The notes beneath the pieces are model-generated. The model worked only from the letters and a program-made list of their open reading frames with translations. It ran no database searches and was not told the DNA's origin. Position numbers and translations under genes: made by a program. This document shows positions 18,101 through 38,796 of a DNA stretch of 64,000 nucleotides, piece by piece (positions within the stretch are counted from its first letter, which is position 1; the number at the start of each line of letters is the position of its first letter). The DNA is from an uncultured Oleispira sp. (lineage in GTDB: Bacteria > Pseudomonadota > Gammaproteobacteria > Pseudomonadales > Oceanobacteraceae). The stretch covers positions 63,505-127,504 of the forward strand of contig CAJXUD010000006.1 in NCBI GenBank assembly GCA_913061415.1, given 5' to 3'.

Positions 18101-18757
18101 GATCCAGATTCCACATTAGATTTCCCTGAGAACCTTGCCCCTTCGCAAGCTCGTTTTGAATTGTTCTTTAATCAAGATGGAACTTTAGATACTCAAGCCA
18201 CTGGAGACATGTATATTTCTAACTGGGATCCAGTGGACGAAAATGGCGATCCTACTGGGGCGGTTAATTCTGTAAACGTTTTAGAAGGGGGGTTGCCGTT
18301 AACAAGCCCTGCAACAAACTCGAACTTTCAAATTGTATTGGACGGCACTACTCAGTTTGGTAGTTCATTCTCGGTCAGTGATGTGAATCAAAACGGTTAT
18401 ACAACAGGGCGTTTAGCGGGCCTACAAGTTGATCAAGAAGGGATGATCTTTGCGCGTTATACTAACGGCCAAGCACAAGCATTAGGCCAAGTTGCGTTAG
18501 CGAATTTCCGTAACCCTGAAGGATTAACACCATTAGGTGGCACCGGTTGGGCGGAATCATTTGAGTCGGGCGTGGGAACGGTTGGCTCGCCAAGAACCGC
18601 ATCGTTCGGTCAGGTGCGAGCGTCGGCATTAGAAGACTCTAACGTCGATATCTCAGAAGAGCTGGTGGGCTTAATCATCGCTCAGCGTAACTTCCAAGCC
18701 AGTGCTAAGACGATTGAAACCATGGACCAAGTGACGCAGACCATTTTGAATATATAA
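15140..18757 (+). CDS. flgE: Flagellar hook protein FlgE, giant form (1205 aa)
   Basis: Canonical N-terminus MSFNIGLSGIRAAS..NNVANASTTGFK and C-terminus LEDSNVDISEELVGLIIAQRNFQASAKTIETMDQV. An insertion of about 750 aa lies between ...AQLNLDAGEDV and FDPTDQDTYNHETS (about nt 15650-17905). Confidence 0.95.
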   Translation: MSFNIGLSGIRAASTDLEVTGNNVANASTTGFKESRAEFGDVYTNTLLGTGSKPVGSGVMVENVRQQFSQGNISGTENALDMAVDGNGFFVLEDQGVVSYTRAGLFGLDKDGYIVANNNARVQGFAANGEGVVGGVLGDLQIQVSNQAPALTSLVSAQLNLDAGEDVLQEQGLELIASGLAIGVPDSGIIESTASTLVAAGQPTTAGTPAMVDWTIGTNTVAAIGTAGTAGVADIQFDIGDGNGLQTVSVPAITAGTPEAGVLSQIQTAIDDVFGSQQLAATTSATGELIIQRAGINATNGTSFSTNDISFNAVFGANSGAVPGTAGSQLFVGSTPISADFRSIPGTSTTTRTTATPPLALVASSPGAPHELTANNPYSGAGLDFSGANELAFSIATEGGATYNITLDAATFGGSANVDVTSMANAINAQITAIAGAGNEETLVEVPVVSGRLRFQAQVGPAANGDFVQIADNAGASSGLSLTDLGFLSTNRFDGGTEPVQANNQFALEVTSSSGNGAGPFDIIIPPATYASLDDVVNAIQEQIDVRIGATGLSGKVTVDAVGGQLVFTNSITGTGEGIAITGTVAEPLAAAALGLDSLFAVAGQDEIDRSNSFRLNLTVPAPDEENRSGSVLISLDEEYRSVQQLATSINRQLNSQNADDYVGIRAQAVEVLPNTVPPEFTLELVAVEEGEGSIISISNISAPGEEVNTNDLFAILQSNPANTNLLTTGIEGVNNQYPEQQVTLMDPEGAETVLTIPEGTEANEVASIFNQQAGITSIANTVMTVPLSSYNNPGNTMTLTVNGQALSSTSLPEIADEINGFRGTTLPGFLASITETGDLIITNEIGRDVKLEINSTSPTDSVMVLGAENTGPVVLGGTVSAPTAAAVGGSVTFTLNEGYSLANPQPSVSGLFGALSEDEFTPVILNAFDPTDQDTYNHETSSEIFDSLGNSHFMTQYFVKEPLDPSRPNEQNIWAMYVQVDGQNVGDPDSTLDFPENLAPSQARFELFFNQDGTLDTQATGDMYISNWDPVDENGDPTGAVNSVNVLEGGLPLTSPATNSNFQIVLDGTTQFGSSFSVSDVNQNGYTTGRLAGLQVDQEGMIFARYTNGQAQALGQVALANFRNPEGLTPLGGTGWAESFESGVGTVGSPRTASFGQVRASALEDSNVDISEELVGLIIAQRNFQASAKTIETMDQVTQTILNI

Positions 18758-23008: not shown

Positions 23009-24064
23009 ATGATTAACAGCCAGATTGCACAGCCACAAGATGTTTATACAGACCTTAATAGTCTGCAAAGCATTAATGCTATTGGTCGCGAAGACAAAGG
23101 CGAAGCTTTGCGTAAAGTGGCTGAGCAGTTTGAATCTATGTTTGTCAAAATGATGATGAAGTCGATGCGTGATGCGAATAAGGTTTTTCAAGAAGATTCG
23201 ATTATGCATTCTCCGCAAGAAGATTTTTATCAACAAATGTATGACGACCAATTATCGGTCAGTTTAACCGGTAAGCAGGGTATGGGATTGGCAGATGTTA
23301 TTTATCGTCAGCTTAATCAAGAATATGGCGATCCTGAGGGACGTAAAGAGGTTCAGTGGCAGCCATTGGATGATCGTCGCAAAAACTTTTCTCATGCGAT
23401 CGACTTTAACCAAATTGAAAAGAAAAATACTCAGCTTAAACCTAAAAAAGAACAAGCGGGTTTTGAAATCGATGCGTCGTTTGTGAATAAAACTGAGCAA
23501 GATACATCCCCTGAAAAGCAAGCTGATAAACTGCAAACGTTTGCCAGCCCCGAGGCGTTTATAGAAACACTTTATCCGGCGGCGCAAAAAGTGGCTAAAG
23601 AAATGGGTGTTAGCCCTCAAGCGATTGTTTCTCAAGCCGCATTAGAAACTGGCTGGGGAAAGTTTGTGATCCATGGTGAAAATAGCCAAGGCGAGCAAGA
23701 AAACAGTTTTAATTTTTTTGGCATTAAGGCTGATAGTCGCTGGAGTGGTGAAAAAGTGAGTGTCACTACTCATGAATATCGAGATGGTCAGCGCGTAACA
23801 GAAAAAGCAGATTTCCGCTCATACCCTAGCATCGAAGCGGGCCTAAAAGATTATGCTGATTTCTTGCAGGCACAGCGTTATGAAAAGGCGATGGCGGCAG
23901 GAACAGATATCGAACAATACGCAAAAGAATTGCAGCAAGCTGGATACGCGACAGACCCTAAATACGCACAAAAAATAACGCGCATCGCCAACAGCGAACT
24001 GATGCAGCAAACTTTAAATACTACGCCATTAGCGCAAAATAGCGAAGAGGTGCCTCGTGGGTGA
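23009..24064 (+). CDS. flgJ: FlgJ: rod-binding domain plus peptidoglycan glucosaminidase
   Basis: N-terminal AEQFESMFVKMMMKSMR and a C-terminal muramidase/glucosaminidase region (AALETGWGK, FFGIKA, AGYATDPKYAQKI). Confidence 0.92.
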   Translation: MINSQIAQPQDVYTDLNSLQSINAIGREDKGEALRKVAEQFESMFVKMMMKSMRDANKVFQEDSIMHSPQEDFYQQMYDDQLSVSLTGKQGMGLADVIYRQLNQEYGDPEGRKEVQWQPLDDRRKNFSHAIDFNQIEKKNTQLKPKKEQAGFEIDASFVNKTEQDTSPEKQADKLQTFASPEAFIETLYPAAQKVAKEMGVSPQAIVSQAALETGWGKFVIHGENSQGEQENSFNFFGIKADSRWSGEKVSVTTHEYRDGQRVTEKADFRSYPSIEAGLKDYADFLQAQRYEKAMAAGTDIEQYAKELQQAGYATDPKYAQKITRIANSELMQQTLNTTPLAQNSEEVPRG

Positions 24065-27035
24065 TTTATTAGGCATAGGTATTTCTGGCTTAAAAGCTCA
24101 GCAAACAGCGCTGAGTGTTACGGGTCATAACATTACTAACGCGGGTACTGAAGGTTATAGCCGCCAGACGGTAAACTTTAATGAAAATACGCCTCAGTTT
24201 AGCGGCGGTGTTTGGACCGGTAATGGCGTTAACGTTGATTCTATTAAGCGCGTTTATGACGAATTCTTAACCGAGCAAATGCAGCGCGACTCATCGGCAT
24301 TTAATGAGAATGAAGTTTTGTCGGTTAACGCTTCACAAATTGACAGTTTATTGGCCGATTCAGGAACTGGCATACAGCCAGGCATCGAAAGAATGTTTGG
24401 CGCTTTGCAATCGGTGGTAGATGATCCTTCGTCACTTCCGGCCCGACAAGTTTTGATCAGTGAAGCCAACGGGCTTAGCGATCGATTTTCTACTATCAGT
24501 GATCGACTGAATGACCAAAGCGAAATTATTAATGGGCAAATGGATGTTATTGCTGGAGAAATTAGCACCATTGGTAATGCGATAGCTGACCTTAACGAAC
24601 AGATTCAATTTGCTTTAGCCGCATCTAATGGCCAACCACCGAATGATATGCTGGATCAGCGTGATCGACTAATAACCCAGCTTTCTGAATTGGTCTCAGT
24701 TGAGGTAACGATCCAAGATGGCAGTGCAATGAATGTCATGATCGGTAATGGGCAATCTTTAGTAATTGGAAATGAATCAAGTGAGCTATTTACCCAGGCT
24801 GGAGATTCTGATTCTTCCAGATTCGGTCTGTATTTCCGTAAAGGTGATACCGTCGTAGACGTCACAGCTGAAATTAAAGGTGGACAGCTGGGTGGAATGC
24901 TACAGTTTCGTGAGGTGGTATTAGAGCCAGCGATTAATGGTTTAGGTCGTCTCGCAGTAAGTATTAACGAAGCATTTAATCAACAACATCAGCTGGGTAT
25001 TGATTACGAAGGCTCAAAAGGCGGTAACTTTTTTGACGACGTAAACTCGCCGAGTAATAGCTATGCGAGGGTACATGGTGATGGCCGCAACAAAGCACCC
25101 AATGATCGCTTAGTTTCAGCGCATATCACCGATAGTTCGAAGTTAACCACCGATAATTATCGATTAGAATTCCCTGGTCCTGGGGAGTATGTGTTTAAAG
25201 TCTATAACGATACCACCGGCCAAGAATTAGAAGCAACTGCGCTAACCGGAGAGCTTCCGCAAACGGTTGAAGTTGATGGCTTTGAAATACGCTTAGAAGC
25301 GGGTACTTTTCAAGCAGGAGATCGTTTTTTAATTACACCAACGCGTGCCGCAGCAGGCAATCTTGATGTGCGCGTGACTCGACCAGAAGAAGTCGCCATT
25401 GCCTCACCGATTTCTACTGACTCGGCCATTGGTAACCGCGGAACAGGGGCTATTTCACAAGGTGCTGTTTACGATATTACAACACCTTATTTGGCCAGCG
25501 AAGGCGAGATGGACCCTCCTTTATTGGTGAAGTTTACGTCAGCCACAAGTTATGACGTATTGGATAACTCAGACCCTGGTAATCCGATACCACTCTTTCC
25601 ACCCTTGATGAATCAACGTTATATTCCGGGTATATCGAATAATATTTTACCACCCGACGAAGGTAAAACCGCCTTCACCAGTTTTGGTGGATATCTACCA
25701 ACAATGCCCACGTATCAGGCACCATCACCAGCGCCTACAGTAACGGCTGTAAATGGTTTTTTCCCTGAACGTATTACCATTAATCGTGAAGATCCTATTA
25801 CAGGGGCGCAAATAGCTCAGCCGCTATTAATCACGCCAGAAAATGCATCGGCGAAAGAAATAGCGCGGCTAATTTCAGAGAGAGATGGGGTGGAAGCAAG
25901 TGCACGAACAACGGTTCAGTTAAGCGACTTCACCCTAGATGCTAATCCATTTATGGATACAAACTTATCTCTAAATGGCATCACGCTCACCGATACCTTG
26001 GCTTTGACGCAAACAAAATATGCCGATGATTATCCTGCAGTTGTGCCCGAGCCTTTAGATGCCAACTTTATAGCCGATCGAATTAATGCCAATTTTGATT
26101 TTCGGGATATGGGAATTGTTGCCAAGAGTGATGGCGAAACTGTAACGATTATTGCGCTAAATGGCGAAGACTTAAGCTTTGAATTAACCGGAGATTTAGG
26201 AGATGGTTTTTCAATATCTAACTCTCAAGACATTCCACTGATTCAAACGGGACAGTCGCCTGTTGTTAACCTAACAGAAATAGATGGTTATGACTTTTCA
26301 ATAGACGGTCCTTATACTTATGAGTTTGAAGGCCCAGATAAAAAAATGTACAGCATAGAGCTGACGGGGAATCATAGTTCAGGGGCCGCTGTCTTAAATG
26401 AAATTCAAAATAAAATTGATAATTCAGGCCTTGTTCACCCAGGTAACTTACAAGTAGATATTGATGAAAAGGGCAGGATTAGTTTTCAAACAAAACTGCC
26501 CGTAACTGCAACAGGGATTAATGGCAGTAGCAAAATTGCCATGGGCGGTGAAATTAAAGTTGTACTTGATGAAGGTCACAGCTTAGAAATAGACCCACCT
26601 GGAAATAATTTATTTGATAGCAACCCCGTAGGTGAGTCTGTTCACTTTGGCTTTGATGTTGAAATAGAAGGGCTGATTCAAAATGGTGACGAATTTACTG
26701 TACAGTTTAATAAAGACGGTACCTCTGATAGCCGCAACGGTGTTGCACTGGGTAACTTGCAAACAAAAAAAATTGTTAATGGAAATACCAGCTTTAGCGG
26801 TGCTTATGCGACGCTGGTAGAAGAAGTGGGTTCTATAACCAGTAGAGCGCGCATAAATAAAGAATCAAGTGAAGTATTGCTGCGTAACTCTAAAGATGCG
26901 GTGAATAGCAGCTCTGGGGTTAACCTAGATGAAGAAGCCGCCGCCTTAATTCAGTATGAACTTGCTTACAATGCTTCTGCCAAAGTGATTCAAGTTGCGC
27001 GTGATATTTTTGATACTTTAATAAATACATTTTAA
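24057..27035 (+). CDS. flgK: Hook-filament junction protein FlgK (HAP1), enlarged (992 aa)
   Basis: GTG start overlaps the flgJ end. N-terminus LLGIGISGLKAQQTALSVTGHNITNAGTEGYSRQ and C-terminus GVNLDEEAAALIQYELAYNASAKVIQVARDIFDTLI. Confidence 0.93.
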   Translation: MGDLLGIGISGLKAQQTALSVTGHNITNAGTEGYSRQTVNFNENTPQFSGGVWTGNGVNVDSIKRVYDEFLTEQMQRDSSAFNENEVLSVNASQIDSLLADSGTGIQPGIERMFGALQSVVDDPSSLPARQVLISEANGLSDRFSTISDRLNDQSEIINGQMDVIAGEISTIGNAIADLNEQIQFALAASNGQPPNDMLDQRDRLITQLSELVSVEVTIQDGSAMNVMIGNGQSLVIGNESSELFTQAGDSDSSRFGLYFRKGDTVVDVTAEIKGGQLGGMLQFREVVLEPAINGLGRLAVSINEAFNQQHQLGIDYEGSKGGNFFDDVNSPSNSYARVHGDGRNKAPNDRLVSAHITDSSKLTTDNYRLEFPGPGEYVFKVYNDTTGQELEATALTGELPQTVEVDGFEIRLEAGTFQAGDRFLITPTRAAAGNLDVRVTRPEEVAIASPISTDSAIGNRGTGAISQGAVYDITTPYLASEGEMDPPLLVKFTSATSYDVLDNSDPGNPIPLFPPLMNQRYIPGISNNILPPDEGKTAFTSFGGYLPTMPTYQAPSPAPTVTAVNGFFPERITINREDPITGAQIAQPLLITPENASAKEIARLISERDGVEASARTTVQLSDFTLDANPFMDTNLSLNGITLTDTLALTQTKYADDYPAVVPEPLDANFIADRINANFDFRDMGIVAKSDGETVTIIALNGEDLSFELTGDLGDGFSISNSQDIPLIQTGQSPVVNLTEIDGYDFSIDGPYTYEFEGPDKKMYSIELTGNHSSGAAVLNEIQNKIDNSGLVHPGNLQVDIDEKGRISFQTKLPVTATGINGSSKIAMGGEIKVVLDEGHSLEIDPPGNNLFDSNPVGESVHFGFDVEIEGLIQNGDEFTVQFNKDGTSDSRNGVALGNLQTKKIVNGNTSFSGAYATLVEEVGSITSRARINKESSEVLLRNSKDAVNSSSGVNLDEEAAALIQYELAYNASAKVIQVARDIFDTLINTF

Positions 27036-27094: not shown

Positions 27095-28333
27095 ATGCGT
27101 ATCTCTACCTTGCAGTCGTTTAATAAAGGGCTGAATTCGATTATGGATAATCAATCTCAGGTCAGTAAAACCCAGCAACAAGTTTCTACCGGTCGACGAG
27201 TATTAACCCCGGCAGATGACCCCATTGCGGCGACAAAAATATTACAGCTGCAGCAAGACTCGGCTTTAAGAGAGCAGTTTGGAAAAAACATGACGGGGGC
27301 CAAGGGCCGATTAGCGTTAGAAGAAACCCAAATGGCAGGGATTACCGAAAATTTGGATCGTCTAAAAGAGCTGACTATTCAGGCGGGAGGTGGAGGCGTC
27401 AACATCAGTGACCGTCAAGCTATAGCCTTCGAAGTTAATGTTATTCTAGAAGCCACCGTAGATTTGATGAATTCAAAAGATGCGGGTGGTGAATATTTAT
27501 TTGGCGGCTTTAAAGGCAATACACAGCCCTTTCAAAAAAATGAAAATGGCCGCTATGATTACGCAGGAGACGAAGGCCAGCGATTTATCTCCATTGCGTC
27601 CTCAACAACCGTTGCCACTGGGGATAATGGGAAAAAGTTATTTGTTGATGTAAAAGCTTCTGATAATACCTTTAATACACAAGTAAACCCGACTAACGGT
27701 GGCACCGGCGTAATTAATCCTGGTTTTGTCGTCGACCAAGAAGAGTATGATAAATTATACCCAGAAGACCTTATTATCACATTTAACCCAGAAACCGCCA
27801 TCTCGCCGCCGGGGCCTAACTATACCGTTCGTCAAGCGTCTGATGGGCGAGTTGTAGAGGGTGTTGATAATCGAGCGTTTAAACCAAGTGATAAAGTCAT
27901 AATCGCAGGGCTTGAACTTAAAATCAGTGGCAAGGTACAGCCAGGTGATGAATTTTTGGTTAATTCGTCAGAAAAACAAAGTTTAACCGATACACTTTAT
28001 CGTTTAAAAGATGGTTTGAATTCCTTAGAAGATATTCCAGTAGATAGTGAAGCATTAAAAAATCTACTAGCGAATACATTAGAGAATTTAGATAATGCAC
28101 AGGCAAGCATTTCACAAATACGCAGTGAAGTTGGTGCGCGGCTCAATGTAGTAGAAAATACTGAAGCACAAGCCGCAGATATCGACCTAGTCAGTAAGGA
28201 AGTTCTATCAAAAATCAGTGATGTAGACTTCGCAGAAGCTGTCAGTCGTTTAAGTTTACAAACATTTTTGCTAGAAACAGCACAGCAAAGCTATGCAAAA
28301 ATACAAAACCTTTCTCTGTTTAACCGCCTGTGA
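27095..28333 (+). CDS. flgL: Hook-filament junction protein FlgL (HAP3)
   Basis: Flagellin-like termini (MRISTLQSFN...; ...DFAEAVSRLSLQTFLLETAQQSYAKIQNLSLFN); 412 aa. Confidence 0.9.
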   Translation: MRISTLQSFNKGLNSIMDNQSQVSKTQQQVSTGRRVLTPADDPIAATKILQLQQDSALREQFGKNMTGAKGRLALEETQMAGITENLDRLKELTIQAGGGGVNISDRQAIAFEVNVILEATVDLMNSKDAGGEYLFGGFKGNTQPFQKNENGRYDYAGDEGQRFISIASSTTVATGDNGKKLFVDVKASDNTFNTQVNPTNGGTGVINPGFVVDQEEYDKLYPEDLIITFNPETAISPPGPNYTVRQASDGRVVEGVDNRAFKPSDKVIIAGLELKISGKVQPGDEFLVNSSEKQSLTDTLYRLKDGLNSLEDIPVDSEALKNLLANTLENLDNAQASISQIRSEVGARLNVVENTEAQAADIDLVSKEVLSKISDVDFAEAVSRLSLQTFLLETAQQSYAKIQNLSLFNRL

Positions 28334-28749: not shown

Positions 28750-31212
28750 ATGCCACAAATTATAAATACCAACATTGCCTCGTTGAACGCACAGCGTAAC
28801 TTGGACAAATCACAGTCTTCAAACCAGCAAGCGTTACAACGCTTATCATCAGGTCTTCGCATTAACAGTGCAAAAGACGATGCAGCAGGTATGGCGATTT
28901 CTACACGCTTCACCTCTCAGATTAAAGGTCTGAACGTAGCAGTACGTAACGCAGGTGATGGTATCGCACTAGCACAAACCGCAGAAGGCGCATTGGGCTC
29001 AATGAATGAAAGCTTACAGCGTATTCGTGAGCTAGCCGTACAGTCTTCTAACGCAACCAACTCAGATGTTGACCGCGATGCACTTCAAGCAGAAGTAAGT
29101 CAGTTGGTTTCTGAGATCACGAGAACGTCTGAAGAAACTGATTTTAATGGTCGTAAGTTACTTGATGGTTCTTTCACGGCAAGCTTCCAAGTTGGTGCAA
29201 ATGCTGGCCAAACTATTGATGTTTCGATTGCTGAACTAACATCTGAGAAGTTGGGTTCTGATTCTCAGGCGGGTGTTTCTTCGCAGGGTAATAGTTCTAA
29301 GCTTGGAAATGGTGATCTTGTCATTAATGGTGAGAATATTCGAGCTTCTGTTTCTGGTGATGATCAATTATCGTTTTCTGGAAAAGAATACTCGGCTATT
29401 GCAAAGGTTGCGGCAATTAATGATTCTAGTGAGAAGACTGGCGTGACTGCAACAGTTGATGAAAACGTTGTTCTTGGTGCTGATATGTCAGATCAAGCTG
29501 CGATTACTCCAGATACAGCAACGATCACCTTGAATGGTGTTGATATAGCCTTGCAGAGCACCGCTAACTCCTCTGATGCCGATAAAGCAGCGACCCGTGG
29601 CTCCGTAATCCAAGCAATCAATGCTAAAGCCGAACAAACTGGCGTAATGGCTTCTGATGGTGGTAATGATGGTGGTGTTATTTTAACTGCTGCAGATGGT
29701 CGAAATGTTACATTAACATCTGACTCTGGTACGGATGATGTCAATGATTTAACAATTTTTGGATTGTCGGATTCAAATACAGCAGGTACTGCTGCCGTGC
29801 AGTCTCAAGCAGGCTTTACGCTAACTGCTGAAAATGCGAATACCAGTATTAACATCACTGGTGGTGATGATACAGGCAATGGTAATCTAGCGAATTCAGG
29901 CTTAGCGGCCGGTAATTATTCAGCTCAGACTGCTTTTACAAGCTCTACTAAGCAAGAAGTTGGTGGCGCAGATGCCGCAGCAACTACCATTAATTCTACA
30001 GCAGCTACGGCAGCCTTAGCAGTAACTCAAGCAGCGGCTTCTGGCGTAACAATTGCGCTTCCGGGTGCAGACACACTGGTTGCTATTCAAGCTGAATTTG
30101 ATGCAGCTGGATATGATGTAACGGTAGGAGCACTAACACAAGAGGGTGTGGCAGTTGCTTCTGGTGAAGCAAAAGCTTCTGAAAAACGCTTGGCGGATGG
30201 TGATTTAGTTATTAATGATGTTGTGATCAAAGCATCAAGTACTTTGGATGATACGGCATCCGATACCAGTGCGGCATCATCAGATGCAGCTGCTTCAGGT
30301 ATTTCCATTGCAGCCGCAATTAATAAGGCTTCTGATTCAACGGGTGTTACCGCTGAAGTTAATGCAACAGAGGTTGTAGGCGGCGCTAATGCTCGATCTG
30401 GGGCTGTAGGGCTGACGTTTGGTGCAACGGCTGGTGCGGTTGCTGCTGGGGATAGCATTACATTAACGGTGAATGGCGTAGATATTAGCCTTACAGAAAC
30501 TGCAGATTATGAGAAGAATAAGGCTGCCGCTATCACTGCGTTTAATGAAGTTTCTGGTCAAACGGGTATTGTTGCTACAGACAACGGACAATCACTTACC
30601 TTAACCGCTGCAGATGGTCGAAATATATCATTGTTTGCTGATGGTGGTGCTGGTGAGGCTATGACTGACTTAGGCACAAGTATAGAAAACTTTGGTCTTA
30701 ATGCATCAAACGTTGGCCAGAATACTGGGGCGACAGGTGTGAAAGCATATACTAACGCAAGTGGTGCTGAAACAACCTATTCAACGGTTTCCTTAACTTC
30801 TGCTTCAGCATTTGAAGTAAGCTTTGGTACTGGTGGGGCCGAGGGCCTATCAGATTCAGGCTTGGTTGCAGGTAAATTTGGTGGTGGTGAAGATGGTCAA
30901 GCCTTGGTTGATGTGGACATCTCAACAGTAGCTGGTGCTCAAGAAGCCTTGGTTGCCATTGATAATGCCATTGGCCAGGTAGCGAGCCAGCGAGCTGACT
31001 TAGGTGCGATCCAAAACCGTATGGAATCAACAGTTAGTAACTTGCAGATTTCGTCTGAAAATTTGAACGCGGCTAACTCGCGAATTCAAGATGCCGATTT
31101 CGCAGCAGAGACAGCAGAACTGCAACGTACTAACGTGTTACAGCAGGCAGGTATTTCAGTTCTAGCGCAAGCTAACGCATCAGGCCAGCAGGTTCTATCT
31201 CTTCTAGGATAA
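28750..31212 (+). CDS. fliC: Flagellin, large form (820 aa) with an internally duplicated variable region
   Basis: N-terminus [18 protein letters not shown]...[16 protein letters not shown] and C-terminus [33 protein letters not shown]. The central region contains two paralogous modules of about 150 aa. Confidence 0.95.
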
Positions 31213-31316: not shown

Positions 31317-31718
31317 ATGAATGATATGAAAGCAACCTTGAGCGATCGCGTTTCGCTAGTTCAACAAAACGCAAAGCCGCTTTCATTCTCTTCTGCTGCA
31401 GATGCTTATGGCAAAGAGCGAGCATCAGTTGTTGGTAAAATCGAGAGTGGCCAAGAGTTGCCACAGGGTGTTAGGGCTATTGCCGATATCAGTGATGAAC
31501 AAGTAAAAGATGCTGTTTCTAAATTGAATGAATATGTGCAATCGACCGAACGTACACTAGACTTTCAAATGGATGAAGACAGCGGAAAGACAGTGATTAA
31601 GGTGTTTGATAAAGCATCTTCAGAATTGATTCGTCAGATTCCTAACGAATTAGCTTTAGAGTTGGCGCAGAACTTGAATGATGATGAACCATCGTTATTG
31701 TTTAGCGCACAAGTGTGA
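31317..31718 (+). CDS. flaG: FlaG family protein
   Basis: 133 aa with the block RTLDFQMDEDSGKTVIKVFDKASSELIRQIP. It occupies the conserved position between the flagellin gene and fliD. Confidence 0.85.
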   Translation: MNDMKATLSDRVSLVQQNAKPLSFSSAADAYGKERASVVGKIESGQELPQGVRAIADISDEQVKDAVSKLNEYVQSTERTLDFQMDEDSGKTVIKVFDKASSELIRQIPNELALELAQNLNDDEPSLLFSAQV

Positions 31719-31767: not shown

Positions 31768-31794
31768 TAAAAATAACCCCAGACTGGCCGATAA
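31768..31794 (+). promoter_or_regulatory. Sigma28 promoter of fliD
   Basis: TAAAAATA-N11-GCCGATAA, 65 nt before fliD. Confidence 0.75.
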
Positions 31795-31858
31795 GGTTAG
31801 TACTGGGGTTTTTGCGTTTAAGCTAAAGGCGCGGTTTACAAGATACTGGAGGCAGGCC

Positions 31859-34800
31859 ATGGCTGCTATTGAATCATTAGGGTTAGGCTCAGGGGTTTTA
31901 ACCAATGACTTGGTCGATAAGATTGTCGGGGCCGAGCGTGAAGCGGCGGATAAGCGCTTTGAACGTGAAGAAACGATTATCGATGCTCGCATTACTGCCT
32001 ATGGTGAAATTAAATCTCTATCGTCTACCCTACAAGTTGCTACCAGCGCACTTTCTTTACCGTCCACGTCGGGTTCAACCACAGCGTCGTCTTCTGATGA
32101 AGCTATTTTAACAACTGAAGCGTCTATTTTAGCCGAGCCAGGCACTTACAGTGTAGAGGTGTTAAATACCGCAAAAGCACACAGTGTGGTTACCGATGCG
32201 TACAGCAGTATTGATGAAATAATTGGTACGGGTGAAATTCAAATTACCTTTGGTGAAATTACTTATGATGGTACGGGTGGCTTTTTAAGTCAGGATGTTG
32301 ATCCTGCTAAAGGCGGCTCACCCATTGTGATTGACGATTCGAATAAAACATTGAGTGGTATTCGAGAAGCAATCAATAATGCGGACATTGGGGCAAAAGC
32401 ATCGATCATTAATGATGGTTCTGGTTATCGCTTAGTAATCACCTCTGAAGAAACCGGTGAAAATAATGCCATGCGCATTATGACCAAGGATGACTTGGGC
32501 GGCACAGCAACATCGGGATTGTCTTCTATTGCTTATAACGAAGTTCAAACCGGTGCTGGCACTATGTCAGAAACGGCAAAAGGTGAAGATGCATTATTGA
32601 AAGCCAATGGTCTCACCATCACTCGTGAATCAAATAGTATTCAAGAAGTTGTTCCTGGGGTGACATTAAATTTATTATCAGCCGACGTCGGTAAACCTAT
32701 TTCAATTGTAGTTGCTCCCGATACGGCAGGTATTCAAGAAAAAATTCAGGATTTTGTTAATGCTTATAATGAATTCAAAAAATTCTCTGATGACTTAACC
32801 TCGTACAATTCAGAAAGTGATCAGGCAGGTTTGTTATTAGGTGATTCGACAATTCGAGGGATTCAATCGCAAGTACGCTCTATGATCAGTCAACCAATCG
32901 CCGGTTTATCAGGTACTAAATACCGCTCATTAACCGAGCTGGGCGTGAATACAGATAAAAATAATGATTACCTTTTAGAGTTTGATCCGGCTGTTTTTGC
33001 AAAGGCGATACGAGAAGAACGTGATACCGTCGTTAGCATTATGTCTAAAAGTGGTGAAGCTACCGATTCACAAATTCGTTATGTGAATGACTCAATTAAT
33101 ACGCAGCCAGGCACGTATGGTATAGAAGTTACTCAACTTGCCACTCAGGCTACTTATTCGGGAGGCAGTGTTACGGGTTTAGATTTTTCTAGCCCTGTTA
33201 TGATTGATGGTAGTAACAATAATTTTAGTATTAATATCAATGGTACAACTGCTGCGATTGAATTAATTCAAGGGAGTTATGCTACGGGTGAAGAATTAGC
33301 CAAGCAAATCAGTTTTCAAATAAACAGTAATGATGCATTTAAAAGTCTTTCTTATGCGGTATCGACTAGCTATAGCGCTACCGATAAAAACTTTTCAATA
33401 ACGTCAAATAAATACGGCGCCGAATCACAAGTTTCTTTTACCAGTACCGATTCAAATACTGCCAATACTTTAGGGTTTAATACCACGGGTAAAGGTGCAT
33501 TTGATGCCGTTGCTTTAACAACACTGAACAGTGATGCATTTTTAGGAAAAGGTTCTACTACTCAGCCGGGTTCACGCACGGTTTTAGAAAGTAATGGTAT
33601 TAATTTTGCCACGAACAATGCGTCATTTTCTTTGGATATTGGTGGTGGTCCTGTTGCCGTTACGGTGAACTTGAATGCGGCGGGTAATGATCTAAACGGT
33701 GATAGTGATATTGGTAACCGTAAAGATACTCTACAGGCGATTCAAACCGCTATTGATGCAACTGCTTTGAACGGCGCTGTCATTGCCGACTTTGATGATA
33801 ATGGGTATTTAACCTTTACGACATCGGCTTTGGGTAGCAGTGAACAGATTGAAATTACCAGTGTCGGTAGCACAAGCAGTGATACGGCATTGGGTTTAAA
33901 AGCGGATCAGGGCGTACAAACCAATGGTGATGATCCTGGTTTAACGTTTGCATCGGCCACTGAGTTTAATATGGCTGTCGATGGTATTAGCACAACGACA
34001 AAGGTCAGCGTGCCATCGGGTACTTATTTAAGCGGTGCTGACTTAGCCACAGCGATTGAGTTGGCGATGGATACTGCTTTGGCGGCAGATCCTGCGTTTG
34101 TCGGATTAACCAAAGGTGGCGTGAGTAATATTGGAACACGCGATATTAGTGCTCCTATCGATTTCTCTACCAGTAATTCTGGATTTATGCTGAATGTGTC
34201 GGGTGTCGAAAAAGAAATTATTGTTAATGGTAATGACCCCGATAATATTGTGAATATTCAAGCGGCGTTAGATACCGCCTATGGCGCTGGAATTGTTTCC
34301 GCAAGTTTGGATGGTTCGGGTGTTAAGTTGTCGTCGGTAACGACGGGTCATAATGAATACATTGAAATTACGGCTGATGGGCGGGGTGCTATTAGTGATA
34401 CCAGTTCTGCCGTGACCAATATCACAACCGGTATTGATTTTAGTGGTGTGGGTGATAATGCAACTTTTACTTTAGCGGTTGATGGCGTTGATATTAACGT
34501 TGATGTGAACGGCGATGGTACTGCAGGTACGAATGATGCTGCATCCACGTTGAATATTGTGCAAAGTGCTGTTGATACGGCCTTGGTAGGCAGTGGGCAG
34601 TTCTCTGAAGGCGATGTGGTTGCCAAACTAGATGGTAGCGGTAATTTATATTTTGAAACGCTGGCTAAAAATGGCGTTAAAACGGCTGCAACTTATGGCT
34701 CGGGTGCGAGCATTGAAGTTAAAAATATCGATGCAAATGCTTCGGCTGACTTAGGCTTAGCTGCCAGTACCGTTTCTAATGGTTACGATACTTTTGGTTT

Positions 34801-35818
34801 CGATGAAACCCGACGTTACGGTTATGATTTAGAGGCTGATGTTGAATACAAGTACGATCCAGTCACCGATTTGGGTTCGTTTAAAATCAATGTTGGTGGC
34901 AATGCTACCGAAGTCTCTTTTAGTGATATTGATGCCGCCGCCATCTCGCTAATCGGGCTGCAGGATGTCAGTATTTATACGCCAACCGTCGCACAAGGAA
35001 AGAACATTGAAGGCAAAATTAATGGCGTTGAGGCTAAAGGCAATGGCCAATATTTGTCAGCAACAGATGGTAATAAAAAAGCCAGTAATGGGTATTACAT
35101 TGCAAATTCCGCGGCTGATTTTACCGCTGGAGTTAATTTAGACGCAACCAATAATAGCTTTACAATTGAAGTTGATGGTGTCGAAAGAACGATTAGTCTG
35201 GCTCAGCCAAGTTCTTATAACTCGGGTGCTGGCTTAGCCGCCGCGTTACAGAAAGCGATTAATGACGATGTCACATTTAAAGCAGATGGTATTGAAGTTA
35301 AGGTCGAATATGACGATGACCCTGCGTCTTTTTCTTATCAAAAATTCGGCATTATTTCAGGCTCTACGGGGGCGTCCTCATCGGTTAAAATGGTGGACGT
35401 ACCTGGGCCAACTTCTGCAATCTTTGGTTTTATCAACGGACAAGCGGATGGCCAGACGGGTAAAGCCCAAGAAGGTCAGATTGATCCATCAAGTGGTGTG
35501 CGCTTAAAAATTACTGGAGGCGCGTTAGGGGATCGTGGCTCTGTTACTTATATTTCGGGCTTTGCTGATCAATTAAATGCTAGTTTGTTATCGCTGCTCG
35601 ATAATAAGACGGGTTTAATTACCACAAAACAAAATGCGTTAGATAATGATAAAGTGCAATTAGAAGAGGAGAGAGAGCGACTTGATACGCGAATGTCTGC
35701 ACAAGAAGCGCGTCTTAAGAGTCAGTTTTTATATAATGATGCGATCGTATCAAAGTTAAATTCAACGTCTGATTTTATAACCCAGCAGTTTGAGGCAATG
35801 AATAACTCTAAGAAGTAA
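31859..35818 (+). CDS. fliD: Filament cap protein FliD (HAP2), giant form (1319 aa)
   Basis: N-terminus MAAIESLGLGSGVLTNDLVDKIV...ITAYGEIKS and C-terminus ...LDTRMSAQEARLKSQFLYNDAIVSKLNSTSDFITQQF. The central part carries at least 7 repeat modules. Confidence 0.93.
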   Translation: MAAIESLGLGSGVLTNDLVDKIVGAEREAADKRFEREETIIDARITAYGEIKSLSSTLQVATSALSLPSTSGSTTASSSDEAILTTEASILAEPGTYSVEVLNTAKAHSVVTDAYSSIDEIIGTGEIQITFGEITYDGTGGFLSQDVDPAKGGSPIVIDDSNKTLSGIREAINNADIGAKASIINDGSGYRLVITSEETGENNAMRIMTKDDLGGTATSGLSSIAYNEVQTGAGTMSETAKGEDALLKANGLTITRESNSIQEVVPGVTLNLLSADVGKPISIVVAPDTAGIQEKIQDFVNAYNEFKKFSDDLTSYNSESDQAGLLLGDSTIRGIQSQVRSMISQPIAGLSGTKYRSLTELGVNTDKNNDYLLEFDPAVFAKAIREERDTVVSIMSKSGEATDSQIRYVNDSINTQPGTYGIEVTQLATQATYSGGSVTGLDFSSPVMIDGSNNNFSININGTTAAIELIQGSYATGEELAKQISFQINSNDAFKSLSYAVSTSYSATDKNFSITSNKYGAESQVSFTSTDSNTANTLGFNTTGKGAFDAVALTTLNSDAFLGKGSTTQPGSRTVLESNGINFATNNASFSLDIGGGPVAVTVNLNAAGNDLNGDSDIGNRKDTLQAIQTAIDATALNGAVIADFDDNGYLTFTTSALGSSEQIEITSVGSTSSDTALGLKADQGVQTNGDDPGLTFASATEFNMAVDGISTTTKVSVPSGTYLSGADLATAIELAMDTALAADPAFVGLTKGGVSNIGTRDISAPIDFSTSNSGFMLNVSGVEKEIIVNGNDPDNIVNIQAALDTAYGAGIVSASLDGSGVKLSSVTTGHNEYIEITADGRGAISDTSSAVTNITTGIDFSGVGDNATFTLAVDGVDINVDVNGDGTAGTNDAASTLNIVQSAVDTALVGSGQFSEGDVVAKLDGSGNLYFETLAKNGVKTAATYGSGASIEVKNIDANASADLGLAASTVSNGYDTFGFDETRRYGYDLEADVEYKYDPVTDLGSFKINVGGNATEVSFSDIDAAAISLIGLQDVSIYTPTVAQGKNIEGKINGVEAKGNGQYLSATDGNKKASNGYYIANSAADFTAGVNLDATNNSFTIEVDGVERTISLAQPSSYNSGAGLAAALQKAINDDVTFKADGIEVKVEYDDDPASFSYQKFGIISGSTGASSSVKMVDVPGPTSAIFGFINGQADGQTGKAQEGQIDPSSGVRLKITGGALGDRGSVTYISGFADQLNASLLSLLDNKTGLITTKQNALDNDKVQLEEERERLDTRMSAQEARLKSQFLYNDAIVSKLNSTSDFITQQFEAMNNSKK

Positions 35819-35923
35819 TGGCTTAGTGGTTATTCGTTGTTTAAAAGCTTTAGATGAAATTATCAAAATTGATGTTTTAAAAATGTTGTACGCAGTTATT
35901 AAAAACTCATAAATCACTTATTG

Positions 35924-35958
35924 AAAAGGCCTTTGGTATTTAGTCAAAGGCCTTTTTT
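35924..35958. terminator. Bidirectional rho-independent terminator between convergent fliD and the methyltransferase gene
   Basis: aaaaggcctttg-gtatttagt-caaaggcctttt has 12-bp perfect arms, an A-run before and a T-run after. Confidence 0.8.
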
Positions 35959-36012: not shown

Positions 36013-38103
36013 TTATAAAAACTTAATATTTGATTGCTTACGGCAATAAAATTGATACATTCCTGCAAAAATCCCCTCATGCTCTTGTTCAACGGTATGC
36101 CAGTTATCTAAGGTATTTTTATCGTATAAGTCGCCTACCTGCTGCTTGAATGCATTTAACGCATTTGGGGTAGGTAACATACCGATAAAGTCCATGTGAT
36201 TGCTTGCTAACAAATCTGTAATGCCTTGCGGTGTAAATTGATGCTCTTGCTCATGAAAAATCAGATCACGGCAGTTACTCATACTATAAAAATCATGTGA
36301 ATTAACTATATCCGACCAATTACCAGGTATTTGATTCATTAACAGGGCTTGGCGTAATAGACGCTGATTGATATCGGCCCCTGTTTGCTGTTTGTTTTTA
36401 GCCACTATTTCTCTCAAAGTGATCACTTGCTTACGTGCTGATTGGCTGTAGAGCGCAATTTTCATAACGCCTGTAGGAGATAACAATTTATTCAAACTTT
36501 TTAAGCCCGCTTCTGGATGCTCCATGTGGTGCAATACCCCAGAGCATTCAATAACATCAAACAGCATTGGAAAGTTATTAAATTCTAAAATATCTGCTTG
36601 AATAAATTGGATGTTATTAACACCGTATTTTTCGGCCTGTTTTTTTGCATAAGCTAAGGCGCGGCCACTTAAATCAATGGCTACAATGTTTAAATCATTG
36701 AAATAACTCGCAAGGCGAATAGCTTGTCGGCCCGTACCACAGCCGGCAACTAAAACATTGAGCTTTTGCTTACCTTGCCAATGACTTAAATTTAAATCAG
36801 GAAAATTCTTAAGTAGAGCACTCTGGTAACTACTTGCGGTATTAAAACCAATATCTTTCCAACGAGGATAAGGGTTGTCTTCGTATTGATTTTTGACTCG
36901 TTCAGATATTACATTTCTATTAGCTGGGTTGCGGTTAGACCAGAAGGGTAATTTTTTCGCGAGTTGAATTTCATCATTGCGAGTATTAATTGCGTACTTA
37001 ACAATGTCTTTTAAATTGCTATGCTCAAGTGCTTGTTGTACGGTCTCACTGTTAAAGACGGTTGCAATGCTTGTAGTCGATAAGTCTTGGTATTGAGCCA
37101 ATATAATGACCGCAGGCGCAATATCGTCTAGCTGCCATTGTGTTTCTTCAGTGATTTGTAATAACAGCTGCTCTAGGCTTTCAATTATTTTTTCTTCATC
37201 GGATGTGATTGGCCAGACATATTCGTTCAATTGCGCTTGTATTGCCATGCTGTGAGCGAAGTTTAAATGGCTGCTAGGAATCGTCATATCTTGAACGGTA
37301 TTAAATAACATTGTTTGTCGAAGGCTAATAAAAAGTCGTTCTAATAACGCATCGCAAAAATGAAAATGTTGTAAGCTACTGAGTAAGAGTGGATCACCAG
37401 CAATTTGGTCGAATGAAAGTGGTGTGCTGGCTTCATTAATTTGAAGTTTATGATGTAATAGTGTTGTTGTCAGGTTTCTCAGTAATGAGTGGTCGACATT
37501 TTCAAACTCTAAGTAACGTAATACGTTTGCTTCTAATTCTTCGGAATAAAAATCCGCATTGATATAAGACGCAGATTCGAACAACTTGTTTCGAATATAA
37601 GGATCATGTGCTTCTGTCTTGATCAGTTCTTGATACATCTGAAAAGCCGGTACGTATTTGCCTTGCTCTAAATAGGTGTATGCTAATAATGATGCCGAGC
37701 GAGTTGCTACCTTAGAAATCTTCAGTGAAGCATTAAGATATTTTTCTGCTTGCTCTAACTGCCTAAGTGCTAACGCAATGTGACCGGCTGTGTATAAAAC
37801 GGCTGGACTATCATTGCTTATACTGAGTGCACGATTAATCAGTGTTTGCGCTTGGTTTGGCTTATCTCGGAACAACTCAATACGTGCAGCTAAGTTTAAA
37901 CCTTTGATGCCTGTTGGGTTGATATCGAGCGCTTTTTTAACCTTATACAAGGTCGCATCCAATAAGCCATTATTCAGCGTACTGTCATATTCAGGTGATT
38001 GTAGTTTGGCAAAGTCATAGCTCGCTTCTTGCACCCATAACGAATAAGCGTCGAGGTCAATTGGGTGAGCCGTTTTTGCATCAGAGGCGTGTAAAAAGTT
38101 CAT
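36013..38103 (-). CDS. TPR-repeat protein fused to a class I SAM-dependent methyltransferase
   Basis: The N-terminal ~220 aa have TPR-like periodicity (A..Y...G.Y..A). The C-terminal Rossmann motif I is LNVLVAGCGTGRQAIRLA, followed by VAIDLS, FIQADI and FDVIECSGVLHHM. It is the only minus-strand gene inside the fliC-fliS block. Confidence 0.8.
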   Translation of the reverse strand: MNFLHASDAKTAHPIDLDAYSLWVQEASYDFAKLQSPEYDSTLNNGLLDATLYKVKKALDINPTGIKGLNLAARIELFRDKPNQAQTLINRALSISNDSPAVLYTAGHIALALRQLEQAEKYLNASLKISKVATRSASLLAYTYLEQGKYVPAFQMYQELIKTEAHDPYIRNKLFESASYINADFYSEELEANVLRYLEFENVDHSLLRNLTTTLLHHKLQINEASTPLSFDQIAGDPLLLSSLQHFHFCDALLERLFISLRQTMLFNTVQDMTIPSSHLNFAHSMAIQAQLNEYVWPITSDEEKIIESLEQLLLQITEETQWQLDDIAPAVIILAQYQDLSTTSIATVFNSETVQQALEHSNLKDIVKYAINTRNDEIQLAKKLPFWSNRNPANRNVISERVKNQYEDNPYPRWKDIGFNTASSYQSALLKNFPDLNLSHWQGKQKLNVLVAGCGTGRQAIRLASYFNDLNIVAIDLSGRALAYAKKQAEKYGVNNIQFIQADILEFNNFPMLFDVIECSGVLHHMEHPEAGLKSLNKLLSPTGVMKIALYSQSARKQVITLREIVAKNKQQTGADINQRLLRQALLMNQIPGNWSDIVNSHDFYSMSNCRDLIFHEQEHQFTPQGITDLLASNHMDFIGMLPTPNALNAFKQQVGDLYDKNTLDNWHTVEQEHEGIFAGMYQFYCRKQSNIKFL

Positions 38104-38340: not shown

Positions 38341-38796
38341 ATGTATAGCAAAGGTGCAAATCAATACCGCCAAGTCGGTATGACATCAGAAGTAGAAGGT
38401 GCTGACCCACATCGTTTGATTCAGATGTTAATGGAAGGTGCGCTGACGCGGATGTCACAAGCTAAAAATATGATTGATGATAAAAACTATGAAGGCAAAG
38501 CTAAGTTGCTGGGCCGAGTAATGGAAATCATCGCGACCTTACAATCAAGTCTTGATCATGATCATGGTGGTGAAATTTCATCAAACCTTGAACGTTTGTA
38601 CGACTATATGAATCGTCGTTTATTAGAGGCTTCTAGTGCAAATGACACATTAATGATTGATGAAGTCATGAAGTTGCTGTTAGAAGTGAAATCAGGCTGG
38701 GATGGTATTCGTGCAGAGTATCTAACTTCAACCAGCAAAAGTGTCAATAAAAGCGCCAATATCAGCGAGTCTTCTCTAAAGTCTTTGACTGTATAA
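38341..38796 (+). CDS. fliS: Flagellin-specific chaperone FliS
   Basis: YRQVGMTSEVEGADPHRLIQMLMEGAL and a four-helix FliS pattern. It has a C-terminal Ser/Lys-rich extension of about 25 aa. Confidence 0.9.
   Translation: MYSKGANQYRQVGMTSEVEGADPHRLIQMLMEGALTRMSQAKNMIDDKNYEGKAKLLGRVMEIIATLQSSLDHDHGGEISSNLERLYDYMNRRLLEASSANDTLMIDEVMKLLLEVKSGWDGIRAEYLTSTSKSVNKSANISESSLKSLTV

What the first reader, a model, noticed from the sequence alone, without database searches (positions are those of the whole stretch)
33180..35400. Filament cap FliD is about 2.8 times normal size with at least seven serial modules
Seen: the canonical FliD N-terminal coiled coil and head domains run to about residue 440 (...GTYGIEVTQLATQATYSGG). 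At least seven x-F-x-I/L-x-V units then follow, starting near nt 33218, 33620, 33959, 34177, 34460, 34874 and 35153. One of these lies after the INGVEAKGNGQYL segment. The canonical C-terminal coiled coil follows. Established: FliD forms an oligomeric cap whose legs insert into the filament tip, and normal size is about 470 aa. Inference: a cap must match the diameter of the filament it sits on, so a much larger plate or skirt is expected. This many repeats could also act as an exposed adhesin-like surface, as FliD does in some pathogens.
Basis: partly seen in the sequence, partly recalled or inferred. Interest (0 to 1): 0.7.

Follow-up and report, generated by a model that had tools for sequence, protein, structure and literature searches.

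The report
Giant flagellar cap with repeated modules
This marine bacterium's flagellar cap protein (FliD) is nearly three times the E. coli size because about 830 residues of repeated small domains are inserted into its leg region, and across bacteria the number of these domains tends to rise with the size of the neighbouring flagellin.

Summary
The ORF at 31859..35818 (+) encodes a 1319-aa FliD with all seven motif sites at the stated coordinates.

- **Repeats.** Six of the seven units (U1-U5, U7) are demonstrably homologous. Five are complete β-β-α-β-β-β domains and U3 is a half unit. U6 is not detectably related to the others; its C-terminal half carries an ancestral strand motif (INGVEAKGNGQYL).
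- **Position.** The 831-aa insert replaces about 20 residues at the junction of the D1 and D0 domains. This is the site where Campylobacter FliD carries its D4 domain.
- **Origin.** Profile comparison suggests the modules are paralogues of FliD's own D3 domain. No Pfam or NCBIfam model covers them.
- **Conservation.** The 7-unit form keeps an almost fixed length (about 1305-1325 aa) across Oleispira, Thalassolituus, Bacterioplanes, Oceanobacter, Reinekea and Salinispirillum. This set includes the strain shown in 2018 to make thick filaments. The insert is under strong purifying selection (dN/dS 0.06).
- **Wider series.** Other β/γ-proteobacteria carry 1, 2, 3, 4, 5 or 8 modules. Module number correlates with neighbouring flagellin length (rho 0.83, not phylogeny-corrected), but not within the 7-unit group.

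Best reading: a peripheral collar on the cap that scales with thick filaments. Its function is inferred, not shown. I found no paper describing it. I class it as a new variant of a known kind.

The parts
31768..31794 (+). sigma-28 (FliA)-type promoter-like site TAAAAATA-N11-GCCGATAA, 65 nt upstream of the fliD start codon
   Evidence: Only match to TAAA-N(14-17)-GCCGATAA in the 64-kb window; 0.08 expected by chance. Sequence read. Function not tested.
31859..35818 (+). fliD coding sequence, 1319 aa (136.6 kDa, pI 4.2, no Cys or Trp)
   Evidence: Full-length homologues 99% identical and annotated as FliD exist in public data.
31859..33070 (+). canonical FliD core, aa 1-404: N-terminal D0 helix, D1, and the D2/D3 head
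   Evidence: Matches Salmonella FliD 9gnz residues 1-381 at E 3.6e-34. Pfam FliD_N and FliD_C positions 1-168.
33071..33190 (+). first segment of the insert's base β-domain, aa 405-444 (includes GTYGIEVTQLATQ)
   Evidence: β-strands at aa 406-410, 418-426 and 432-434 in the AF2 model. Conserved in all one-module FliDs. That it pairs with the later base segments is inferred.
33191..33592 (+). module U1 (aa 445-578), complete. This is the module type present in every 'long' FliD of this kind.
   Evidence: Stand-alone AF2 model has pLDDT 90.3 and pTM 0.82.
33593..33931 (+). module U2 (aa 579-691), complete
   Evidence: hhalign against U4 97.3% and against U5 98.8%. β-β-α-β-β-β pattern in the model.
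33932..34150 (+). module U3 (aa 692-764), a half unit with only the β-β-α part, followed by a loop
   Evidence: hhalign against U1 95.4% and against U7 97.1%, over 36-38 columns only. Secondary structure.
34151..34432 (+). module U4 (aa 765-858), complete
34433..34846 (+). module U5 (aa 859-996), complete
34847..35125 (+). U6 (aa 997-1089). The N-terminal half looks like a half module (β-β-β-α) of unproven homology. The C-terminal half is the ancestral base strand motif GKNIEGKINGVEAKGNGQYL.
   Evidence: No significant similarity to the other units. The motif aligns with the invariant G.DV.GTINGV.A.G.GQ.L of one-module FliDs.
35126..35398 (+). module U7 (aa 1090-1180), complete. It is inserted inside the ancestral base segment and is the closest paralogue of U1.
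   Evidence: U1-U7: 34% identity over 85 aa, z 10.5, hhalign 99.2%.
35399..35815 (+). last base-domain strands (GVRLKITGGALGDRGSVTYISG) followed by the C-terminal D1/D0 coiled-coil helix, aa 1181-1319
   Evidence: Pfam FliD_C positions 165-236. Matches Salmonella FliD residues 402-467 and the 5gna peptide. Helix at aa 1253-1317 in the model.
35923..35957 (.). 14-bp hairpin flanked by an A-run and a U-run. Likely a bidirectional intrinsic terminator between fliD and the convergent methyltransferase gene.
   Evidence: dG -17.7 kcal/mol, z -4.8, 0 of 200 shuffles fold as well.
28750..31212 (+). neighbouring large flagellin, 820 aa
   Evidence: Flagellin_N and Flagellin_C at the two ends, with about 590 aa of outer region between them.
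31317..31718 (+). flaG
   Evidence: Pfam FlaG.

Best explanation
**Shown.**
- This is the flagellar filament cap protein FliD.
- About 20 residues that link the last D1 helix to the C-terminal D0 helix in Salmonella FliD are replaced here by an 831-aa insert (85 kDa, pI 4.05).
- The insert has three short β segments (aa 405-444, about 1047-1094, about 1213-1231). Between them lie five complete α/β modules of roughly 100 aa, one half module, and one half-module-like piece.
- The modules are related to each other.
- The arrangement is conserved at nearly constant length over a whole family-level clade.

**Likely.**
- The modules are paralogues of FliD's own D3 domain.
- The three β segments together form one base β-domain from which the modules loop out.
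- The array grew from a one-module ancestor of about 670 aa.

**Inferred mechanism.**
- The insert leaves D1 at the position where Campylobacter FliD carries D4. That domain lies on the outside of the cap, away from the flagellin-folding cavity.
- Five FliD subunits would therefore hang about 35 extra domains (about 425 kDa) around the periphery of the cap, as a collar.
- I propose this collar occupies the radial shell that the very large outer domains of the flagellin fill in the thick filament.
- It could brace the cap on a wide tip. It could also shield or guide the outer domains of the newest subunits while they fold.
- The conserved D0/D1 legs and D2/D3 plate would still perform the capping itself.
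For: **Identity.** Pfam, NCBIfam and PDB sequence matches. Gene order is flagellin-flaG-fliD...fliS.

**Repeats.**

**Structure.** The AF2 model of aa 405-1319 has pLDDT 89.9 and pTM 0.64, with a recurring β-β-α-β-β-β pattern.

**D3 ancestry.** hhalign of the merged module profile against the D3 profile of 71 diverse FliDs gives 92.6% probability, E 4.5e-7, 73 columns in register. Foldseek's best hits are FliD structures: 6IWY at E 4.7e-7 and 9GSX at E 4e-6.

**Insertion site.** Query aa 399 aligns with Salmonella residue 381, and aa 1252 with residue 402. [quoted passage not shown]

**Selection and conservation.**
- dN/dS is 0.062 in the insert and 0.037 in the core, against a relative 93% identical.
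- Residue conservation in the insert equals that of the core across 118 homologues.
- Length stays at 1305-1326 aa down to 37% identity.

**Scaling with flagellin.**
- A graded series of 1, 2, 3, 4, 5, 7 and 8 modules exists.
- The median neighbouring flagellin is 507 aa for one module, 687 aa for two, and 1050 aa for seven.
- The 8-module, 1408-aa FliD sits next to a 1393-aa flagellin. The 5-module FliD of Maricurvus sits next to a 1347-aa flagellin.
- Spearman rho is 0.83 over 65 loci.
- The thick-filament strain DSM 24913 has the 7-unit FliD.
Against: **Against strict size matching.**
- Within the 7-unit group, FliD length does not track flagellin length: flagellin spans 732-1359 aa and rho is 0.05.
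- One-module FliDs occur next to flagellins of 266-888 aa.
- A FliD with about four modules sits next to a 579-aa flagellin.
- The correlation is not corrected for phylogeny. Most of the 7-unit loci belong to one clade.

**Against a role in flagellin assembly.**
- Extra FliD domains studied elsewhere are dispensable for filament assembly. This holds for the Vibrio D4 deletion (PMC13106801) and for replacement of the Pseudomonas head domains (PMC8533109).
- Campylobacter D4 is judged not to take part in flagellin incorporation.

**Gaps in the structural evidence.**
- The cap modules are not related to the flagellin outer domains (hhalign at most 9%), so homotypic contacts are not implied.
- No oligomer model or tip image was available.
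- The spatial arrangement of the modules could not be inspected.
Confidence: 0.45

Rival explanations
1. Tip adhesin. The module array is an exposed binding surface at the distal end of the flagellum, for example for particles, oil droplets or other cells. The canonical core does the capping.
For: FliD is reported to mediate adherence in some bacteria, and C. jejuni D4 was proposed to relate to heparin binding (PMC7316729). Serial small domains on an exposed, non-essential part of the protein are typical of adhesins. Several genera that carry it are oil-degrading marine bacteria, according to the titles and abstracts listed.
Against: - Copy number is fixed at seven units across genera, with an orthologous unit-by-unit match.
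- dN/dS is 0.06 and conservation equals that of the core. Adhesin repeat arrays usually vary in copy number and evolve faster (my own knowledge).
- No known adhesin or lectin family matches any unit.
- This idea does not explain the association with flagellin size.
Confidence: 0.2
2. Cap stabiliser or spacer for the start of assembly. The modules make lateral contacts between FliD subunits, or contacts with the enlarged junction and hook proteins. This would hold the pentamer on a very wide hook-filament junction before the first flagellins arrive.
For: In this window FlgK is 992 aa and FlgE is 1205 aa. In Campylobacter, D4 of one FliD lies between D3 of its neighbour and a FlgL subunit (PMC12221982). 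The constant length of FliD despite variable flagellin length fits a partner other than flagellin.
Against: FlgL, the direct partner of the cap at the junction, is of ordinary size here (412 aa). No data were gathered on FlgK or FlgE sizes in the other lineages. No complex model is available.
Confidence: 0.2
3. Tolerated expansion with no specific role. Domain duplication occurred at a permissive site and was simply retained.
For: Outer and head domains of FliD can be deleted or swapped without loss of function in Pseudomonas and Vibrio. Duplication of outer domains is common in axial flagellar proteins (PMC6248924).
Against: Length and unit order are conserved down to about 37% identity, and dN/dS is 0.06. 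An unneeded 85-kDa segment that has to be exported unfolded through the flagellar channel would be expected to decay or vary.
Confidence: 0.1

Closest known systems
Campylobacter jejuni FliD with its D4 domain (PDB 6SIH, 9GSX; 642 aa)
   Same: The extra globular domain is inserted at the same place, in the C-terminal part of D1 just before the last helix. It lies on the outside of the cap, away from the folding cavity. Whole-chain Foldseek match at E 4e-6.
   Different: Campylobacter has one domain of about 100 aa, against an 831-aa array here. No sequence similarity between the inserts was detectable. Domain-level fold equivalence was not established.
One-module 'long' FliD (650-700 aa) of Methylococcales, Cellvibrionales, Nitrosomonadales, Chitinimonas and others
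   Same: Same core, same base strands (GTYxVxVTQLATQ ... G.DV.GTINGV.A.G.GQ.L ... GL.L.V.GG..G.RG.V), and a U1-type module at the same position. This is the likely ancestral state.
   Different: One module instead of seven units. In the giant form, U2 to the N-terminal half of U6 are added after U1, and U7 is inserted inside the base segment.
Helicobacter pylori FliD, domains D2-D5 (PDB 6IWY; 685 aa)
   Same: A FliD enlarged by additional β-rich domains. It is the best Foldseek hit to the insert model, at E 4.7e-7.
   Different: In H. pylori the extra domains are described as part of the head region, D2-D5 (PMC8533109), not as a D1/D0-junction insert. It has two extra domains, not seven units.
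Vibrio FliD D4 (2026 report, sheathed flagella)
   Same: A FliD of about 670 aa with an extra domain that widens the cap to about 16.8 nm. That domain is not needed for filament assembly (PMC13106801).
   Different: Vibrio D4 is described as helical, on top of the cap, and modelled with D3. The Vibrio-type NCBIfam model PRK08724 matches this protein only at aa 5-211, so the inserts are unrelated. I saw no evidence either way on whether these bacteria have flagellar sheaths.
Giant flagellins of Oceanospirillales with duplicated DE regions (Thomson et al. 2018)
   Same: Same organisms and the same evolutionary route: stepwise internal domain duplication in the outward-facing part of an axial flagellar protein.
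   Different: A different protein and different domains. hhalign of the cap modules against the flagellin family gives at most 9% probability. The 2018 paper does not mention FliD, and it asks whether other flagellar components are correspondingly large.

Membership tests
FliD / HAP2 filament cap protein | N-terminal FliD_N region (D0/D1 helix) | tested here: met
   PF02465 at aa 11-108, E 6.9e-19.
FliD / HAP2 filament cap protein | FliD_C region, including the C-terminal coiled-coil helix | tested here: met
   PF07195 is split: aa 242-405 and aa 1231-1302. PDB matches to 9gnz residues 402-467 and to the 5gna peptide. AF2 helix at aa 1253-1317.
FliD / HAP2 filament cap protein | D2/D3 head domains homologous to solved FliD heads | tested here: met
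   phmmer against 5h5v, 5fhy and 5xlj at E 7e-34 to 6e-14, over aa 42-403.
FliD / HAP2 filament cap protein | Gene context next to flagellin, flaG and fliS | tested here: met
   Flagellin 28750..31212, flaG 31317..31718, fliS 38341..38796. The same order is seen in related loci.
FliD / HAP2 filament cap protein | Forms an oligomeric cap at the filament tip | not testable with these tools
   Needs imaging or biochemistry.
FliD with a D1-inserted D4 domain (C. jejuni type) | Extra domain inserted in the C-terminal part of D1 | tested here: met
   The insert lies between the residues that align to Salmonella 381 and 402. C. jejuni residues of about 450-557 are unaligned at the same place. Literature description.
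FliD with a D1-inserted D4 domain (C. jejuni type) | Insert homologous to C. jejuni D4 | tested here: inconclusive
   No sequence match from the insert alone. Only the whole-chain Foldseek hit, E 4e-6 with low TM-score.
Vibrio-type FliD (NCBIfam PRK08724, helical D4) | Full-length match to the family model | tested here: not met
   122.9 bits against a cut-off of 580; the best-scoring stretch covers only aa 5-211.
Flagellin DE-region repeats (Thomson 2018) | Modules homologous to the flagellin outer-domain repeats of the same clade | tested here: not met
   hhalign of each module profile against a 27-sequence flagellin alignment gives at most 9.3% probability.
Flagellin_IN motif (PF07196) and known adhesin repeat domains | Pfam match within the insert | tested here: not met
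   No Pfam family reaches its threshold in any unit, even with the E-value limit raised to 5. Some homologues carry a precomputed PF07196 hit.
FliD D3-domain paralogue (proposed origin of the modules) | Profile-level homology in register with D3 | tested here: met
   92.6% probability, E 4.5e-7, 73 columns. U2 alone gives 73%. Support at fold level is weak: the single U1 model against FliD chains gives TM 0.42-0.43.

The most novel reading that the evidence does not exclude
The number of D3-like modules at the D1/D0 junction of FliD works as an evolvable 'size adaptor'. Lineages that thicken their filament by enlarging the flagellin outer domains add cap modules in step, from 1 up to 8. The resulting collar is needed to assemble or keep a thick filament. 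This would be a previously unrecognised co-evolving pair within the flagellum. It would also answer the question left open in 2018, whether other flagellar parts scale with giant flagellins.
Probability: 0.3. Interest if true: 0.7.

Novelty: new variant of a known kind. Interest (0 to 1): 0.55.

Why it matters
Cap proteins with one or two extra domains are known. A cap protein twice as large as the biggest studied ones does not appear in any paper I could search. Nor does a conserved seven-unit array or a graded 1-to-8 module series across proteobacteria.

The 2018 study that described thick filaments built from giant flagellins asked whether other flagellar components are correspondingly large. 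In this window the answer is yes for FliD (1319 aa), the hook protein FlgE (1205 aa) and the junction protein FlgK (992 aa). FliD is also giant in the very strain imaged in that study.

This offers a natural system for asking what the outer domains of the cap do. It comes with a clear deletion experiment and culturable organisms.

Tried and rejected
- **Chance or low-complexity artefact.** Rejected by shuffle controls and by in-register profile matches.
- **Assembly error or gene fusion.** Rejected. The same 1316-1320-aa protein occurs in complete genomes, including O. antarctica RB-8, Bacterioplanes sanyensis, Thalassolituus and Venatoribacter.
- **U6 as a seventh homologous module.** Not supported by sequence or profile.
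- **Modules as copies of flagellin outer domains.** Rejected.
- **Modules as the Vibrio D4.** Rejected.
- **Precise fold assignment for one module.** Foldseek of the U1 model gave no PDB hit at E 1e-3 or better. The best TM-scores (0.61-0.64) were to a phage sheath protein and a giant-virus capsid protein. Flagellar domains reached only 0.37-0.43.
- **Uninformative context look-ups.** Several were cut at contig ends or were not next to a flagellin gene.
- **P0199.** This 744-aa tandem-repeat protein with module-like units sits on a 2.3-kb contig, so its nature could not be settled.
- **Coordinates.** Model coordinates are not exposed, so contacts between domains could not be examined.


Full report
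**What is there.** The region lies inside one ORF, 31859..35818 on the + strand, of 1319 aa.
- Pfam finds FliD_N at aa 11-108. It finds FliD_C in two pieces: profile positions 1-168 at aa 242-405 and positions 165-236 at aa 1231-1302.
- The N-terminal 400 residues match solved FliD structures (Salmonella 9gnz residues 1-381, E 3.6e-34).
- The last 66 residues match Salmonella residues 402-467 and the FliD C-terminal peptide in 5gna.
- The neighbours are an 820-aa flagellin, flaG upstream, and fliS further downstream.
- So this is FliD. About 830 residues stand where the enteric protein has about 20, at the junction of the last D1 helix and the C-terminal D0 helix.

**The repeats.** Shuffles give 1.9 on average, and 0.45% of shuffles reach seven. 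I cut the insert into seven units, U1 to U7.
- Pairwise alignment against shuffled partners gives z = 7-10.5 for U1-U7, U2-U4, U2-U5, U4-U5 and U3-U7.
- Profiles made from 118 full-length homologues link U1, U2, U3, U4, U5 and U7 at 88-99% hhalign probability, always in register.
- There are two subgroups, {U1, U3, U7} and {U2, U4, U5}.
- U3 shares only the first half of the unit.
- U6 shows no significant relation to any other unit.
- An AlphaFold2 model of aa 405-1319, built with a 76-sequence alignment, is confident (pLDDT 89.9, pTM 0.64). It shows the same β-β-α-β-β-β pattern in U1, U2, U4, U5 and U7. U3 and the first half of U6 show only β-β-α.
- So there are five complete modules, one homologous half module, and one half-module-like piece.

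**Ancestral frame.** Diverse relatives share three conserved strand segments: GTYxVxVTQLATQ, then G.DV.GTINGV.A.G.GQ.L, then GL.L.V.GG..G.RG.V.
- In the short relatives, the second and third segments are contiguous.
- Here they are separated by U7.
- I infer that the three segments form one base β-domain from which the modules loop out. I could not check this because model coordinates are not exposed.

**Origin of the module.**
- No Pfam or NCBIfam model covers aa 440-1235.
- No PDB sequence matches the insert alone.
- A merged profile of the five complete modules matches the D3-domain profile of 71 diverse FliDs at 92.6% probability (E 4.5e-7, 73 columns, same order of elements).
- Foldseek of the large model finds FliD structures first: H. 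pylori 6IWY at E 4.7e-7 and C. jejuni 9GSX at E 4e-6, followed by P. aeruginosa FliC D2/D3 and several FliD D2-D3 crystals.
- A stand-alone U1 model (pLDDT 90.3) has no significant PDB neighbour. Flagellar domains reach only TM 0.37-0.43.
- I therefore rate 'paralogue of D3' as likely, not proven.
- The modules are not related to the outer domains of the flagellins of the same clade (at most 9%).

**Distribution.**
- The best 120 database hits are all 1306-1326 aa apart from three fragments. They come from Oleispira (81% identity to O. antarctica RB-8), Bacterioplanoides, Bacterioplanes, Thalassolituus, Venatoribacter, Parathalassolituus and Oceanobacter.
- Reinekea and Salinibius, and Salinispirillum and Natronospirillum, carry it too.
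- A search of 1.84 billion representative proteins with the insert found only 212 representatives at E 1e-3 or better.
- Annotating those with unit HMMs shows a modular series, N-core + n modules + C-tail:

| FliD length (aa) | modules (n) |
|---|---|
| 650-700 | 1 |
| 770-830 | 2 |
| 916-943 | 3 |
| 1020-1081 | about 4 |
| 1154-1171 | 5 |
| 1292-1319 | 7 units |
| 1408 (one form) | 8, including one module inside the head |

- One-module forms are widespread in Methylococcales, Cellvibrionales, Nitrosomonadales and Chitinimonas.
- Arrays in some lineages consist only of U1-like units. The giant form is heterogeneous. I infer that amplification happened more than once.

**Selection.**
- Across homologues the insert is as conserved as the core.
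- Against a relative 93% identical, where dS is about 0.7, dN/dS is 0.062 for the insert and 0.037 for the core.
- Unit order and total length hold down to 37-38% identity.

| modules | loci | neighbouring flagellin, aa |
|---|---|---|
| 1 | 29 | median 507 (range 266-888) |
| 2 | 6 | median 687 |
| 3 | 1 | 704 |
| 4 | 1 | 723 |
| 5 (Maricurvus) | 1 | 1347 |
| 7 units | 26 | median 1050 (range 732-1359) |
| 8 | 1 | 1393 |

- Spearman rho is 0.83.
- A second FliD with about four modules, next to a 579-aa flagellin, turned up later and is not in this table or in rho.
- Locus L009 is strain DSM 24913. The 2018 study lists that strain number as Oleibacter marinus 2O1 and reports filaments at least 30 nm wide, against 24 nm in Salmonella. 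That paper does not mention FliD, and it asks whether other components are correspondingly large.
- Caveats: the correlation is not corrected for phylogeny, and within the 7-unit group FliD length is flat while flagellin length nearly doubles (rho 0.05).

**Mechanism.** The insertion point is where C. jejuni FliD carries D4.
- It is placed on the outside of the cap, between a neighbour's D3 and FlgL, and far from the folding cavity (PMC12221982).
- By analogy, five subunits would place about 35 domains (5 x 85 kDa) around the cap periphery, at the radius filled by the flagellin outer domains. This is the collar model. It is an inference.
- Work in Pseudomonas and Vibrio shows that head or extra FliD domains can be removed without losing filaments. 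So the array is probably accessory to capping itself.
- Rival roles are tip adhesion, bracing the cap on the enlarged junction, and no specific role.

**Transcription signals.**
- A sigma-28-type match (TAAAAATA-N11-GCCGATAA) lies 65 nt upstream of the start codon and is unique in the window.
- A strong hairpin with flanking A and U runs follows the stop codon.
- Both are pattern or energy matches only.

**Literature.** Searches combining FliD with the genera concerned, or with giant flagellins, returned no description of this protein. The library does not cover most subscription journals.

**Verdict.** The feature is real and conserved. It extends a known theme, extra FliD domains, much further than has been described, and it shows a suggestive link to filament thickness. 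I class it as a new variant of a known kind, with interest 0.55.

Noticed in passing
window 15140..18757 (+): The hook protein FlgE is 1205 aa, about three times the E. coli size. Pfam assigns only the ends and FlgE_D2 at aa 920-1087, leaving roughly aa 150-920 unassigned. A stretch at aa 503-583 resembles FliD module U2 (hhalign 62%, E 7.5e-5).
   Followed up: partly
window 24057..27035 (+): The hook-filament junction protein FlgK is 992 aa, with about aa 430-950 unassigned by Pfam. FlgL (27095..28333, 412 aa) and FlgD (14318..15115, 265 aa) are of ordinary size.
   Followed up: no
window 36013..38103 (-): A 696-aa protein with TPR repeats and a SAM-dependent methyltransferase domain lies between fliD and fliS, convergent with fliD. 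An unrelated metagenome locus (L090 6567..7604) also has a minus-strand methyltransferase right after a multi-module fliD. It may be a flagellar protein modification enzyme.
   Followed up: no
window 31775..31815: The GCCGATAA element of the sigma-28-like site lies in the loop of an inverted repeat (CCCCAG ... CTGGGG) followed by TTTTT. That repeat could act as a flaG terminator overlapping the fliD promoter.
   Followed up: no
L084 8793..13019 (metagenome contig, protein P0132): This 1408-aa FliD has an additional module inserted inside the head region (aa 248-342) as well as the C-terminal array. It sits next to a 1393-aa flagellin.
   Followed up: partly
L027 (MAG labelled Polaribacter sp.): The contig carries an Oleispira-like 1322-aa FliD (75% identity) and a 1060-aa flagellin. 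This is probably a binning error in the MAG, since the sequence looks gammaproteobacterial.
   Followed up: no
protein P0199 (744 aa, from a 2.3-kb metagenome contig): About eight tandem copies of an ~88-aa unit show the same F-x-L-x-x-DG ... AEELR..IQ.AVD ... GD.VV.LD pattern as the FliD modules, with no FliD core in the fragment. The module may occur in other proteins. P0193, a 510-aa FlgL-like or flagellin-like protein, also gave a weak module hit.
   Followed up: partly
L001 10001..13501 (GCA_016716085.1): A 1166-aa FliD with five U1-like modules sits away from any flagellin gene, among unrelated genes and next to a transposase-family gene.
   Followed up: no
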